Shown: positions 9,001 to 18,000 of the stretch, in pieces
How the letters are laid out: each line of letters starts with the position of its first letter
Position numbering within the stretch: the stretch's first letter is position 1
Origin: Escherichia coli
GTDB lineage: Bacteria; Pseudomonadota; Gammaproteobacteria; Enterobacterales; Enterobacteriaceae
NCBI RefSeq assembly: GCF_002854065.1
Contig: NZ_CP024147.1
Reading direction: 5' to 3' (one strand)
Length of the DNA: 64,000 nt
Position numbers: made by a program

Positions 9001-12000
9001 CGCTGTTCGATAAGATCTTCGCGAGGAATGTTAGGAAATGCTATGTTTAGTGCTGAAGTAAGCCGGCTTTCTAGCTCGGCTTCAGTTCGAACGAGTGGAG
9101 AGCCCGTTTTTGATTGCATACTTTTCATGACAAAGTATCCTCAGATATTAGTCATTGGCTAAGTTTTTATTTCACTTACTACCTTTCCAGATTAATGCGA
9201 AGACGCATAGCATTGGATTAACGGATGTGAAATGGATTATTGACAAGCAAAGTAACTTTTTCCGCATAACTATCAATTGATTAGCTGAAGAAAGGGAATA
9301 TGATTTAGTTCACTCAGGTTTCTCCAGCACGATGTGCAGATGCTAAAGCCACGATTAATTCTAAAGCAGATTAATATAACCCTGAAACAGGCAGAGCAGG
9401 AAACGCCTGTATCGGAAGTATGCCGCATGACCGCCCCCGATAACTCACACCGAATGCCAATAGGAATGTCAGCCCCTCGCTCATAGCAGACCTTCGGGCC
9501 TGGCAGCTTAGTGCCAAGAACACTCCCCAGTGGCCTATCGGCAAGTGTAAGCGTACGAATATCGCCTCCGTGCTACACAGTAGACGACTACATTTTCGAC
9601 GCATGAGCAAATCGTGGCTTTAGTTGTCTAAAACCAGTGCTTCAACACTTTTTTTTCACCAAACAACGCATCGTAGAAGCACTAGTTGGATTCCACAGGC
9701 TTACGTAAACAAATAGCGCTAACGGCTAAGCTGGTCCATTAGACGCTCAATCATCCTCGCAAGAGGTATAGTTACTCGATGCCCAGAACAAATGACATTA
9801 ACAAATCTAGCTTTATTTTCATGTCTGCAGTTGCCGAAGCCGCATTAACCTGCGGCAAGGCAAGCCATCTGTTTACGGCATCGGAGTTGAATCTCTGCTG
9901 CCTTAGGAACGAAGATACCGACGTTTCCCAGGAAAAGATTTCACCCCCACAAAGTTCGACGGGCTGCTGAGAGCAGGCTCGCTGAATAGTCATTCCCAAA
10001 CCGACGTAGCGGAGAAGCTCACGTCGCACATTCTCATCTTTTTGCATGACTGGTGCATCCAGTTTCGGTTTCGGTCCAAAGTACACTCCGGTAGTACCTG
10101 GTTGTAATGTCGGGTCACTGGAAAAATAAACCGGAACTCCCATCAATTTAAATGCCGCTGTCAAAATTTCATAACTAATGTCTGATCGACTCCAACGGCC
10201 CATGTGGGGTGGTACTTTTGGCAAACCGACCAGATCATCGCCACGGCTTACAATCGATACCCCCTCAACTGGCACGGATGGTTGCATTCTGAATACAGCG
10301 TCAGAATCGATTTCCCAGCCAGCTTCGCTTAACAATCGCAAAAAATTACCAGCAGCCACGCACGATGATTCACTCCACTCAACACAACCGATGCGCAGCT
10401 TGTCCCGCTGACCGAACTGTCCTGTTCGAAATAATTCGAGGTATCTGTCGCGATTGGAACTATTAACGGCATATGCATCAATCACAGTAGGCGGTACAGG
10501 TTTACTTGCAGATTCAGGATTTTGTTGAAGCAAATCTGGGCTTATGAAAAACACTATAGCGAAGATCGCCACTGCGCCAGATGCTCTTAACCACCCATTA
10601 AATTTTACTTCAAGGAAACCAGGCAGAACTGCACCAATACATCCGGCAGCCAGAGCCAGAACTATTCGGTAAACTATATATTGATAAGGTGTGGGATTGG
10701 GGGTTGTGATAGTAGTAATGAGTATGGCAACTATCGCCACAACCGCAAAACCATACCTAATGAACTTGTCTGTCCTTACACTGCTCATTTTAATTTTGAC
10801 ACCTGAATCAAGTCCATAAGTCGAAAATCCCGCATTAAACTGTTCCCCAATGATTAATACAGCTTTATACGCGTAATGAGGCTATTGGCGTTGGTGATGA
10901 GTGTAACTGTCCATTCCTCGCTCAGAGCAACCTTCTGCTCCAAGAGTCAGTCTACAGTGTGCAAAAAACAGACGTTGATCACAATATCGAGTTAATCATT
11001 CGGCCGTTTATCACTCCCATTGAAAAATTTCTCAGTATCCAATATACCAATGTTGAGGGCTTCCCTCTTACATCTCAAAAGGATAACTATCATGGGTCTT
11101 AAACCTGGTCCAAAACCAATTGCTAAATCGACAGGAAAACCAGATCAACGCCGACGAGATAATAAAGATACTCCTGGCAACACTCCGGGACTAAAGCCAA
11201 GTAAGTCCACCGGGAAGTAAAAAAATCAGGGTATAAATAAGTTATTTATACCCTGACTACATATCCAGTCTACTGAAGGTGTTTCTGCAGCCAGGTGCAC
11301 GTTCCTTCTATATCATACGCCTGTGCCCCATACCCTTTAGCAAGCAAAGTCTCTGGTAAATACTCGTCATATTTATCCAGATACTTGTCAGGAACAACTG
11401 CAGCAAGCTCAAACTCTGAAGGTAACCCCGACAATAGCATTTTCTTAAGTACACGCTGGACAGAGGCAACGCCTGAGTCCTCTACCTCTATCACACCTGC
11501 AAATGAACTGGCTTTAAAGCCACAACGTATAAGCAGGGACGTAATTGTATTGACAATTTTATCCCCCATCCACGGGATCACGTAGCAGTTCTGACCACTG
11601 GCAATAAAACAGTCATTGTGTAGATTGTAGCGTTGGAAGTTGTCACTTCCTTCCGCAAAGAGGCTTCTGGCTGCGGCATCAGCATAATCGACTCTCTTGT
11701 TGCCTACCGCGATACGGTAATCATTTTCCCTGTAGATAGCGAGCATCTCCTGGCGAACAACATCATGAACAGACATCCCGCTACCACTGAATAGTGGTGG
11801 CTGACCGCCTTTAGTCGCCTCAACATAGATAACCTTTTTTTCAACCTCGATCTCTGTCACTTTCCAGCGCCGTCCGCCGAAGATGATGTGCTGCTCCGGC
11901 AAAAGTGGGGAGTCTACAGGCACTGTGCCAAGAGTTCGGTTTCCCGTTACAATGCGAAACTCCTCAGGTGTATTGAATACGGCATAAAACGTGTAGTGAT

Positions 12001-15000: not shown

Positions 15001-18000
15001 GTCAAGCCCCCCTTCCCCGGTTAATGAGGCTGGAGCGCTTTCTGGTTGTTCTGGTTCTTCTTCAGTGAAAATCGAGTTCAGTAATTTACGAACATCATCA
15101 GTGGCAGATTCGTGGCGGGCAAGTACATTGGCATCCAGCGTAAACCCTGCCGTCGACTGATTAGCTGGTACAGATGAAACGAGAGCAGTTTCAGTTACGG
15201 AATGCTGATGGATATTGCTTGATACGGATGAGGGATCCAACCCCAGGCTTGTATAAATCTTCTCAAGCTGTTTGATTTCGGCAGGCGTAATTCTGCCGTC
15301 AGAGCAAGCGACACTAACGATAACCTTACCCACAGCTGATTTTTCCGCTGCACCGAGTAACTCAATCCGGCTTTTCATTCCCGTCATATTCGCCGGGGTA
15401 TGAAGCTGCCACGTTAAATATGCGTGCAGAGAGCGCTTTTCATCATCGCTGAAGCTGACATTGTTGTTGATGGCATTCTCAAGCACTTTCTGTTCGGCTT
15501 GATCGAAAGAATTGTCAATCAAGGCGACTACCGAACCTAATCGGAGCGTCAATACAGCTGTGATAAATTCAGGAGAAGGAGAGAAGCGGCCACTTTCACC
15601 AGCAGGGAATAAAACAAGAACACCATCGACATCTGCTTTTACGTGGTGGTAATAGGGGTCAGGAGCCAGGCAGTACCCCATTTTCTGTGCAAAGGCCTGC
15701 ATCAAGTCGGCCTCTTTTTTGTTGATCTTTGCCGGACAGGTAGCATTCATGTGTGACCAGAAGTCAGCAACTGAAACTACTCCCCCCTTACTGAGGATCG
15801 CGTCATCAGCCCAGCGTTTGAATGCACTTAATATTTTATCTGCGCTTTCGTTAACGATTTCTGAAGGCAGCAACAAAATTGCAACGGTATCATTTGCTGA
15901 AGTGCCTTTTCTACCAAGGTAACGACTGTAAGCATCCAGTTCATCTGTGCATATATCAGCAAGAGTCATAAGCTTCTGAACAGGGCCTTTCAATGCACTT
16001 GGATCAGGCAAGTCAGGAACAGGAAGCCGAATACCTCTCAAACTGGGACTTGCAGGCGTGTAATCTAAACGCAGACGCGCTTTATTCGGCTTCACTACCA
16101 TCCCTTCACCGTATTTAAGGGTGTAACGCCGTTTAAATAGTGCAGCAAATTCTTTCGCACAGCGGCGGGCGGGGGTTCGTAATGAGTATTCAGTATGGTT
16201 TGTCACCCACGTCAGAGCCAGATCCGCTGGAACCGGGGCTCCTGCATCAACTGTCTTTGCCAGGATTAACCTGAACTGCATGCTATTGCTGAACTCTGAA
16301 TCATCGCTGAGAGCTGCTGCAAGATTTTCGTTCGGACGAAGAATGGACATCGCTTCAAGTAACTGGGACGAGTAGTTCCGGAATGATCTGTTTTCATTGA
16401 AAACAGATCTGAGACGGCAGATCTCTTTGAAAAGAGAATAGAACTCATCGTCAGATATATTGCTGTCCCTGCTGTCAACAAGCGCCCGTCTTTCCAGACC
16501 ATACAGATAAATAAAAACGTAACCAATTGGGCAAGAAGTGTCACATCTGTCGCTGGTAAGCCAACTCAGGTACGCGCCACGTGCTTCAGGTGAAAGTGAG
16601 GAATAACTGGGCCAATACCCTAATGAACTATCTTCGTAGATGTAAGATGTGGGGTATATCTTGAGCGTGTCGTCAATTAGCGATGCCTCGCTACTATCAT
16701 CATAATAACCGCCTGAGTTATGCCCGACAGGGTTCATTCGCTGTCCAAGATAGAAGTAGCCGCCGGTAATCTCTACCCCACCGACTGTGATCACCTCCCC
16801 CGGTAAAATCCAGCGAGCCAAAGCACCGGTAGTTTTTGAGAAATTCTGGCGTTGAGTGGCTGTTATACTGTATTCGGCATTCCGCCCGCCACTTAGTGTA
16901 AACGTAGCCAGATTGTCATCTTCGCTGTCCTCGTTGTGCATTACAGACTGATTTTTTTTGTTATTAGCAAGCCATTCTTTAGGTGGTGCTTTCACAGGAG
17001 CGGAAGTATAAGAGCCCGCGGACTTAGTTTTCTTCTTTTTGAAAAAAAGAATATAAATCAAATAAATCGCTACTATAAATATCCATAACTCCATGAGGCA
17101 ATAACCTTAAAAATAGCTTTTCACGAACACCGAAAGGATGACGATGGGAAGTGGATTAATCTTAAAATAATACTTCTAAATTACAAAGGTTAAAAGCAAA
17201 TCACAACCTTCCCGAACCTCCGCTTTTCGCTTGCTACGGTCCCTGCCGAGCATGAATCTCGTCTATGCCCAAAAGCGGACATTGATAATTCAGAAACCAT
17301 GGCAGAAGTGTGGTATCAGCCCCTCACCTGATGCCTGCCAGCATCGCACCTCGCTTCATGTCTAACCTCTCTGTTAGCCCGGCAGGGTCAATGGCTCTGT
17401 TGACAATGGTGCTACTTTCCAATACGTTAAGCACAAGGTTAGCGCGACCCGGCAGCTCACGGCCAAAGCGGAATGCAGCGCAGACTTATCAAATCTTTTT
17501 TGGTTAAGTGTCTTTGATTCTTATGATTCGTGAGCACATAGGACAGATAAGAGACTTAAACCATGAAACAAATCCCCACATGCGCTGAAGCAAAAGCCCA
17601 CGCCAAATACCTTTCACGGTCGCTCAATATCAATCTAAGCTACGCCCGGGATGCAGTGGCATTACGTTATAACTACCATAACTGGTCGGAACTCAGCACA
17701 GTATTTGGTCAGCTTAGCTGATAAGTACATGTCGTGCTATGGCCTTGCCAGTCATGAAGAGAAGCGTGTTTTTAGCCAGCTTCTGGCACCATATATCGCA
17801 GAATTGCAAAATGTCATTCATCCTGACCGCCATGTACGGAAAGCTTGATACGTAAGATTGCTGAAGGCCATATTTCCCGGGTATCTGGTAAAGTGATGTC
17901 GGCTGTAATACGTGAATGCGAGGATTTTCCTCCCACGACAGTTAAAGACATCATTGAACTGCTTGAATTTTATGATGAAACGGCCAGCCGGATATTAGCA

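What the first reader, a model, noticed from the sequence alone, without database searches (positions are those of the whole stretch)
11218..17094. Intact three-gene operon: membrane TerB-domain protein, P-loop ATPase and DExH helicase (Shango-like anti-phage architecture)
Three long ORFs on the minus strand are translationally coupled (3-nt gap at 14782-14784; ATGA overlap at 13465-13468) and end in a clean terminator (11218-11255). Gene 1 has an N-terminal TM helix and a region fitting the TerB-domain pattern. Gene 2 has Walker A GEYGSGKT and Walker B-like LLVSLDEM. Gene 3 has SF2 helicase motifs I, II (DEFH) and VI plus a ~300-aa C-terminal extension. This gene order and domain content match the Shango defence system described in phage-defence surveys. 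It is the only large intact multi-gene cassette in an island otherwise full of IS elements and pseudogenes. The mechanism (what TerB senses, what the helicase/ATPase pair acts on) is unknown.
Basis: partly seen in the sequence, partly recalled or inferred. Interest (0 to 1): 0.85.

Follow-up and report, generated by a model that had tools for sequence, protein, structure and literature searches.

The report
Shango anti-phage operon, already known
This is an intact copy of Shango, a three-gene bacterial anti-phage system described in 2022, almost identical to the E. coli version that was tested in the lab; it is a correct call but not a discovery, and how Shango works is still unpublished.

Summary
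Three minus-strand genes (14785-17094, 13465-14781, 11270-13468) are joined by a 3-nt spacer and an ATGA overlap and end at a strong terminator.

PADLOC profiles identify them end to end as SngA (6.5e-103), SngB (1.3e-187) and SngC (7.1e-277). They have the same lengths (769/438/732 aa) as the E. coli KTE113 Shango that Millman et al. 2022 cloned and showed to protect against phage. Over the first 399 residues they are 93.5/98.7/97.0% identical to it.

At least 80% of the cassette is present in 442 of 5,426 complete E. coli genomes. SngB also matches at 95-99% protein identity on 617 plasmids, mostly Klebsiella and Salmonella; one fetched Klebsiella plasmid carries all three genes. The gene order is kept across at least five bacterial phyla. 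The finding is therefore already known.

Added here:
- SngB-SngC is the same kind of gene pair as BrxD-BrxHI of type-2 BREX.
- SngA evolves fastest and SngB slowest.
- SngB ends in a conserved peptide (LAxFxL-COOH), and the disordered membrane-proximal linker of SngA carries a look-alike. The papers I read do not mention this.

The mechanism remains inferred.

The parts
17159..17195 (-). Weak sigma-70-like promoter candidates upstream of sngA (for example TTTAAC-16-TATTAT). Putative only.
   Evidence: My own relaxed scan gives 8/12 matches at best; the stricter tool scan lists nothing here. The candidates lie inside the 138-nt upstream block (17095-17232) that is shared with a second E. coli island context. 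They also lie inside the region cloned as 'native promoter' in the published KTE113 construct.
14785..17094 (-). sngA. 769 aa: N-terminal membrane helix (2-18), disordered linker (22-83) carrying an acidic run plus LATFTL (62-67), then a folded TerB_N / helical / TerB / TerB_C body (90-769).
   Evidence: PADLOC SngA 6.5e-103. Pfam TerB_N, TerB and TerB_C. AF2 mean pLDDT 86.9. Foldseek places the TerB-fold entries 2h5n and 2ou3 at the top with probability 0.97-1.0. Protein sequence is identical to RefSeq WP_000424706.1 in strain AMSCJX02.
13465..14781 (-). sngB. 438 aa, BrxD-family P-loop ATPase with Walker A 61-68, Walker B D242/E243 and a conserved C-terminal peptide GLANFRL-COOH.
   Evidence: PADLOC SngB 1.3e-187 against BrxD 1.1e-43. 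Pfam BrxC_BrxD 2.2e-151. Invariant motif residues. Tail conservation.
11270..13468 (-). sngC. 732 aa, Lhr-core-like SF2 DExH helicase: RecA1, RecA2, winged helix, small beta-barrel and an alpha+beta C-terminal domain.
11217..11258 (-). Intrinsic terminator of the operon.
   Evidence: 15-bp perfect stem, 3-nt loop, U7 tail; -25 kcal/mol, z = -4.4.

Best explanation
IDENTITY (confidence about 0.95): this is an intact Shango anti-phage defence operon, sngA-sngB-sngC. It sits in a genomic island integrated next to tRNA-Arg(CCT) (argW) of an E. coli-type chromosome. It is an allele of the E. coli system that was shown experimentally to reduce phage plating.

WORKING MECHANISM (inferred, confidence about 0.35):
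1. SngA is held in the inner membrane by one N-terminal helix, and its whole folded body lies in the cytoplasm. This follows from the positive-inside rule: KKKKTK comes directly after the helix.
2. SngA is the fastest-evolving component and has an allelic hot spot at residues 101-150. It is therefore the best candidate for the part that meets the phage, for example by sensing genome entry or another membrane-proximal event.
3. SngB is by far the most conserved component. It belongs to the BrxD family, which the literature classifies as an ORC/Cdc6-type AAA+ ATPase. I infer that it uses ATP to load or switch on the helicase, and that it docks through its conserved C-terminal peptide (LAxFxL-COOH). 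In the clade that includes E. coli, a look-alike peptide sits in the disordered juxtamembrane linker of SngA. The same pocket could therefore be used either to tether the enzymes at the membrane or to regulate them.
4. SngC is an Lhr-core-type helicase. Lhr is a 3'-to-5' single-strand DNA translocase (established knowledge, not tested here). I infer that SngC acts on phage DNA. I found no nuclease, protease, pore or NADase domain in any of the three proteins. Interference would therefore come from unwinding or protein stripping, or from handing DNA to host nucleases.

Shown here: gene structure, domain content, folds, conservation pattern and the peptide motif. Shown by others: phage protection by close homologues. 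Inferred: every step of the mechanism.
For: Identity:
- Full-length or near full-length PADLOC SngA/B/C matches.
- Same protein lengths as the validated KTE113 system, with 93.5/98.7/97.0% identity, and a matching cloned upstream region.
- Protection data for homologues: PMC10250203 and 10.1101/2022.05.11.491447.
- The A-B-C order is kept in nearly all of the 80 loci fetched from other genomes wherever the contig is long enough. These span Gamma- and Deltaproteobacteria, Bacteroidota, Chlorobi, Chloroflexi, Planctomycetota and Actinobacteria.

Mechanism:
- TM helix, disordered linker and folded body of SngA; TerB fold.
- SngB-SngC is related to the BrxD-BrxHI dyad, for which a helicase-loader role has been proposed (PMC12839542).
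- dN/dS is 0.10-0.12 for SngA, 0.024-0.035 for SngB and 0.065-0.08 for SngC.
- The last three hydrophobic residues of the SngB tail (L433/F436/L438) are at least 97% conserved in 72 homologues.
- A scoring matrix built only from SngB tails finds its best match anywhere in SngA within the N-terminal linker in 56 of 79 SngA proteins, with z > 3 in 37.
Against: - This allele itself has not been tested. It differs from the tested KTE113 SngA at 26 of the first 399 residues.
- No promoter better than 8/12 was found.
- No interaction among the three proteins was tested. The tools return no inter-chain contacts, so the docking role of the peptide is conjecture.
- The SngA look-alike peptide is missing from distant clades that still keep the SngB tail.
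- The counts come from related sequences and are not independent.
- The published protection is modest (10- to 100-fold).
- Abortive infection has not been excluded.
Confidence: 0.9

Rival explanations
1. It is Shango, but it works by abortive infection or membrane damage. On this view SngA senses infection and then perturbs the membrane, or the ATPase and helicase run unchecked on host DNA or drain ATP, so that the infected cell dies or stalls.
For: SngA is membrane-anchored and carries a TerB domain. Reviews class Shango with 'membrane surveillance' systems. Another TerB system, Dionysus, uses a pore-forming effector. The small EOP effects with smaller or turbid plaques are compatible with abortive infection.
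Against: SngA has only one membrane helix and I found no pore-forming or lytic domain. [quoted passage not shown] The two enzymes are DNA-handling types.
Confidence: 0.2
2. Its main biological role is competition between mobile elements, such as anti-plasmid or anti-conjugation activity, rather than phage defence. This does not exclude anti-phage activity.
For: SngB matches at 95-99% protein identity on 617 plasmids, mostly conjugative and mostly from Klebsiella and Salmonella. One example fetched, an IncFIB/IncFII plasmid, carries all three genes. In E. coli the operon sits in tRNA-linked islands at two different sites. Such islands also carry the anti-plasmid system ApsAB. A membrane-tethered helicase that acts on single-stranded DNA would meet incoming conjugative DNA.
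Against: Phage protection has been measured in two species. No anti-plasmid data exist in the papers searched. Carriage on conjugative plasmids is common for ordinary anti-phage systems.
Confidence: 0.12
3. It is a remnant or satellite of a type-2 BREX system (BrxD plus BrxHI) that has lost its methyltransferase and PglZ core.
For: SngB hits BrxD (1.1e-43; NCBIfam 145.9 bits) and SngC hits BrxHI (3.4e-115). A real BREX-2 locus has the same ATPase-then-helicase order. SngC is 31% identical to that BrxHI.
Against: Scores to the Sng profiles are far higher (622 against 148 bits; 919 against 384 bits). The NCBIfam BrxD cut-off of 350 bits is not met. No pglX, pglZ, brxC or pglW is annotated in the 15 kb on either side of the operon in a matching genome whose three Shango genes are 99.9% identical. 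The TerB partner is retained with the pair across phyla.
Confidence: 0.02
4. It is a housekeeping stress or repair module: a tellurite-resistance (Ter) gene set or an Lhr-type DNA-repair helicase operon.
For: The TerB domain and the Lhr-like fold. NCBIfam 'ligase-associated DEXH helicase' scores 230.6 bits.
Against: The NCBIfam cut-offs (850 bits and similar) are missed by a wide margin. No terZACDE or ligase genes are nearby. The operon lies in a horizontally acquired island, is present in only about 8% of E. coli genomes and is also found on plasmids. Close homologues have measured anti-phage activity.
Confidence: 0.02

Closest known systems
Shango (SngABC) of E. coli KTE113 (Millman et al. 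2022) and of P. aeruginosa PA14 (Johnson et al. 2023)
   Same: Same three genes in the same order and with the same protein lengths. Identity to KTE113 over the first 399 residues is 93.5/98.7/97.0%. The upstream region matches that of the published clone.
   Different: This is a different allele: 26 SngA substitutions in the first 399 residues, and it has not itself been tested. A third E. coli allele sits in a tRNA-Phe island.
BrxD-BrxHI dyad of type-2 BREX (Pgl)
   Same: An adjacent BrxD-family ATPase followed by an Lhr/Ski2-like helicase with winged-helix, barrel and Lhr-type C-terminal domains. The pair is likely to work the same way.
   Different: No PglX methyltransferase, PglZ, BrxC or PglW here, and a TerB_N/TerB/TerB_C membrane protein is present instead. 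The BrxD equivalog cut-off is not met. The one BrxD tail I read ends EDIDLDLA, not LAxFxL.
Lhr-core helicase (Mycobacterium smegmatis Lhr, PDB 5v9x) and MrfA/YprA (6znp)
   Different: Only 22% identity. SngC belongs to a defence-associated SF2 clade with BrxHI, DruE and DpdJ (PMC12278908). It has no Lhr C-terminal extension and no DUF1998 zinc module.
Other TerB-containing defence systems (Bunzi, Dionysus)
   Same: A TerB-fold domain in a membrane-associated defence protein.
   Different: Their partner proteins are membrane or pore-forming proteins, not an ATPase-helicase pair. SngA additionally has TerB_N and TerB_C.

Membership tests
Shango (SngABC) | SngA: TerB_N / TerB / TerB_C protein matching the SngA profile | tested here: met
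   PADLOC SngA 6.5e-103 over residues 40-768. Pfam TerB_N 1.6e-49, TerB 8.4e-6, TerB_C 7.5e-27. TerB fold recovered by Foldseek.
Shango (SngABC) | SngB: ATPase matching the SngB profile, with intact Walker motifs | tested here: met
   PADLOC SngB 1.3e-187 over residues 1-438. Walker A and B residues invariant.
Shango (SngABC) | SngC: SF2 helicase matching the SngC profile, with intact motifs I, II and VI | tested here: met
   PADLOC SngC 7.1e-277 over residues 2-729. Motif residues invariant.
Shango (SngABC) | All three genes adjacent and co-oriented in the order A-B-C | tested here: met
   3-nt spacer and ATGA overlap. The same order is found in nearly all of the 80 loci fetched from other genomes wherever the contig allows.
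Shango (SngABC) | Confers protection against phage | not testable with these tools
   Shown by others for the KTE113 allele (93.5-98.7% identical) and for the PA14 system. This allele is untested.
BREX type 2 | Core genes pglX, pglZ and brxC (and pglW) in the locus | tested here: not met
   None is annotated in the 15 kb on either side of the operon in a matching genome whose three Shango genes are 99.9% identical. A true BREX-2 locus was fetched for contrast.
BREX type 2 | BrxD at equivalog level | tested here: not met
   NCBIfam NF033438 scores 145.9 bits against a cut-off of 350.
Lhr / ligase-associated DEXH repair helicases | Score above the curated family cut-off | tested here: not met
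   TIGR04121 scores 230.6 against 850; NF010338 scores 193.6 against 849. The fold is Lhr-core-like, so SngC resembles Lhr but is not a member.
Ter tellurite-resistance cluster | terZABCDE-type neighbours | tested here: not met
   No ter genes among the annotated neighbours. Only the TerB-family domains of SngA are present.

The most novel reading that the evidence does not exclude
Shango may be organised by a short docking peptide that the papers I read do not mention. SngB ends in a conserved acidic linker followed by LAxFxL-COOH. In a large clade that includes E. coli, the disordered juxtamembrane linker of SngA carries a mimic (DDNLATFTL). If both peptides bind one pocket, on the SngC helicase or on a host or phage protein, the system would work by a membrane-tethered hand-off: SngA holds the enzyme at the site of DNA entry, and SngB displaces it to load the helicase.
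Probability: 0.2. Interest if true: 0.5.

Novelty: already known. Interest (0 to 1): 0.25.

Why it matters
As a finding it mainly confirms that the first-stage reader can recognise a real defence system from raw sequence.

Shango matters in its own right. It is in about 8% of complete E. coli genomes. Its SngB gene is on hundreds of conjugative Klebsiella and Salmonella plasmids, so it is relevant to phage therapy. No mechanism for it appears in the literature I searched.

The side observations give concrete handles for mechanistic work on a system that is already cloned and assayable:
- the Lhr-core helicase, with no nuclease domain found;
- the kinship with the BrxD-BrxHI pair;
- the gradient of evolutionary rates across the three genes;
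- the conserved SngB tail and its mimic in SngA.

Tried and rejected
1. Sequence searches of the PDB with SngA and SngB, and with a 52-sequence SngB profile, found nothing usable.
3. I considered an SngC-linker-SngB fusion prediction to test where the SngB tail docks. I dropped it because the tool returns no contact or PAE information, and because the paired alignment could only be entered as about 72,000 typed characters. The last structure job went to SngC alone.
4. I asked whether BREX-2 BrxD carries the same tail, which would point to the helicase as the receptor. Only one BrxD was retrieved. It ends EDIDLDLA, which is similar in style but is not the motif, so this is inconclusive.
5. I suspected that the many partial megablast hits to the 3' end of sngC meant a shared, exchangeable C-terminal module. 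They are truncated sngC pseudogenes next to IS elements.
6. I asked whether the 338-aa ORF downstream (9772-10788) is a fourth Shango gene. It is absent from the published clone, from the second E. coli island and from all 80 loci in other genomes.
7. The promoter search gave only 8/12 candidates.
8. A search for a direct repeat of the tRNA-Arg 3' end, to mark the far end of the island, found none at up to 3 mismatches.
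Full report
OBSERVATION. The first junction reads GGT TAG tga ATG, a 3-nt spacer. The second reads CTATGAGC, an ATGA stop/start overlap. Eleven bases after the last stop codon there is a 15-bp perfect hairpin followed by seven U. It folds at -25 kcal/mol, z = -4.4, and none of 200 shuffles folds as well.

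IDENTITY. PADLOC profiles match the three proteins over their full length, or nearly so for SngA: SngA 6.5e-103, SngB 1.3e-187 and SngC 7.1e-277. Every other family scores far lower.
- Pfam gives TerB_N, TerB and TerB_C for gene 1.
- It gives BrxC_BrxD (2.2e-151) for gene 2.
- It gives DEAD plus Helicase_C for gene 3.

Shango was named by Millman et al. 2022 (bioRxiv 10.1101/2022.05.11.491447) and independently by Johnson et al. 2023 (PMC10250203). Millman's supplementary table lists the validated system as a 6,700-bp fragment of E. coli KTE113 with proteins of 769, 438 and 732 aa. Those are the lengths found here. Over the 399 residues the supplement prints for each protein, the window's proteins are 93.5%, 98.7% and 97.0% identical. 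The 5' end of the published clone aligns to window 17563 downward. The window therefore carries a close allele of the type system. SngA and SngB are identical to RefSeq proteins of E. coli AMSCJX02. SngC differs from its RefSeq counterpart at two variable positions.

DISTRIBUTION AND CONTEXT.
- At least 80% of the cassette is present in 442 of 5,426 complete E. coli genomes. A further roughly 470 genomes hold only fragments. The fragment-only hits I fetched are truncated sngC pseudogenes beside IS elements.
- In the window the operon lies in an island that starts at tRNA-Arg(CCT) (2593-2667) with an integrase at 2816-4033. The island ends near 42.75 kb, where the match to the same island in other E. 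coli genomes stops.
- A second E. coli allele (96.7% nucleotide identity) sits in a tRNA-Phe island, and homology stops 138 nt upstream of sngA. KTE113 carries a third allele.
- SngB matches at 95-99% protein identity on 617 plasmids: 452 of all matching plasmid records are Klebsiella and 144 Salmonella, and most are conjugative. One fetched example, an IncFIB/IncFII plasmid, carries all three genes between the lac operon and repA.
- SngABC Shango in E. coli genomic islands has already been figured in print (PMC11096173).
- A scan of one genome per species returned 80 loci. Wherever the contig is long enough, the order SngA-SngB-SngC is kept. This holds from Enterobacterales to Deltaproteobacteria, Bacteroidota, Chlorobi, Chloroflexi, Planctomycetota and Actinobacteria.
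- The 338-aa ORF just downstream (9772-10788) is not linked to the operon anywhere else and lies outside the published clone.

ANATOMY: SngB. It is a BrxD-family P-loop ATPase, and its Walker A, Walker B and several arginines are invariant. It has no relative in the PDB, even when searched with a profile. A 2026 comparative study classifies BrxD as an ORC/Cdc6-type AAA+ ATPase. That study notes that BrxD and the helicase BrxHI form a tightly linked dyad specific to type-2 BREX, and proposes that BrxD loads or activates BrxHI (PMC12839542). It does not mention Shango.

In short, Shango is a TerB-family membrane protein joined to a BrxD-BrxHI-type ATPase-helicase pair. I found no nuclease, protease, NADase or pore domain in any of the three proteins.

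EVOLUTIONARY PATTERN. Across the 80 loci, identity to the window proteins runs 60-97% for SngB, 42-89% for SngC and 33-81% for SngA. Against four Enterobacterales orthologues, dN/dS is 0.024-0.035 for SngB, 0.065-0.08 for SngC and 0.10-0.12 for SngA. All three genes are under purifying selection, and the membrane protein changes three to four times faster than the ATPase. Between two E. coli alleles, SngA divergence is concentrated at residues 101-150, which are 74% identical against 86-100% in the other 50-residue windows.

AN OBSERVATION NOT MENTIONED IN THE PAPERS I READ. Every complete SngB ends in a variable acidic linker followed by [D/E/G]-L-[A/T/V]-x-F-x-L at the very C-terminus. The three hydrophobic positions are at least 97% conserved in 72 homologues. 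SngA of E. coli has EDSEDDNLATFTL at residues 55-67, in the middle of the disordered linker (pLDDT about 45). I built a position-specific scoring matrix from the SngB tails alone and scanned full-length SngA proteins with it. The best hit falls in the N-terminal linker in 56 of 79 proteins, with z > 3 against shuffled sequences in 37.

The mimic is confined to the clades nearer to E. coli. It fades in Deltaproteobacteria and Actinobacteria, which still keep the SngB tail. The sequences are related, so these counts are not independent events. The partner that binds the peptide is unknown. The single BrxD tail I could read (EDIDLDLA) is similar in style but is not the same motif.

HOW IT MOST LIKELY WORKS (inferred, about 0.35).
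1. SngA anchors the system at the cytoplasmic face of the inner membrane. As the fastest-evolving part, it is the likeliest sensor.
2. SngB uses ATP to load or activate SngC, docking through its C-terminal peptide.
3. SngC translocates on phage single-stranded DNA or on 3' tails, as Lhr does. This blocks circularisation, replication or transcription, or exposes the DNA to host nucleases.

The published phenotypes fit direct interference better than cell suicide, but they do not settle the question. [quoted passage not shown] As of late 2025 the literature still calls the role of TerB proteins in defence unclear (10.1101/2025.09.30.679545).

VERDICT. The system is already known, named and experimentally validated in a nearly identical allele. 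It is also common. Novelty: already known. Interest: low to moderate, and that only because the mechanism of Shango is open and the side observations above are testable.

Noticed in passing
window 13465-13490 (SngB C-terminus) and 16894-16932 (SngA residues 55-67): SngB ends in a peptide conserved across phyla, LAxFxL-COOH, after an acidic linker. SngA's disordered juxtamembrane linker carries a look-alike (EDSEDDNLATFTL) in the clades nearer to E. coli. The binding partner is unknown.
   Followed up: partly
window 16645-16794 (SngA residues 101-150): Hot spot of divergence between E. coli Shango alleles: 74% identity here against 86-100% in the other 50-residue windows of SngA. This is a possible specificity surface.
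   Followed up: partly
window 9772-10788 (minus strand): Intact 338-aa ORF with hydrophobic N-terminal segments and no hit in Pfam, PADLOC or NCBIfam. It lies just downstream of Shango in this island only and is not linked to Shango elsewhere, so it is an orphan island gene.
   Followed up: partly
window 6768-9128 (minus strand): A 786-aa 'HsdR N-terminal domain' gene that is intact in E. coli AMSCJX02 is broken here: two in-frame stops leave ORFs of 159 and 459 aa. The intact version gives only weak methyltransferase-profile hits in PADLOC.
   Followed up: partly
window about 18.7-20.1 kb (ORF 19235-19738, minus strand): Roughly 780 extra bases relative to the otherwise collinear AMSCJX02 island, shifting the downstream genes. 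It looks like an IS insertion, but I did not identify it.
   Followed up: no
window 2593-4033 and about 42750: The island starts at tRNA-Arg(CCT), with an integrase next to it. The match to the same island in other E. coli genomes ends near 42.75 kb. No repeat of the tRNA 3' end was found at up to 3 mismatches, so the far attachment site is degraded or different.
   Followed up: partly
plasmid collection; example L086:6688-12509: SngB matches at 95-99% protein identity on 617 plasmids, mostly conjugative, from Klebsiella and Salmonella. The one example fetched, an IncFIB/IncFII plasmid, carries all three Shango genes between the lac operon and repA.
   Followed up: partly
L002:10268-11059 and L003:10329-10421: About 470 E. 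coli genomes hold only fragments of the cassette. The two examples fetched retain only a 3' stump of sngC, cut by IS elements and next to IbrB-like and PerC-family genes. These are scars of lost Shango copies.
   Followed up: yes
L084:9127-20075 and L085:6331-12437: Two variants. A deltaproteobacterial MAG has about 6 kb inserted between sngA and sngB. A Persicobacter plasmid has a divergent Shango (SngB 36% and SngC 31% identical) with an 885-aa upstream protein that tblastn with SngA does not detect, and its SngB tail ends LVDGIEEL.
   Followed up: no
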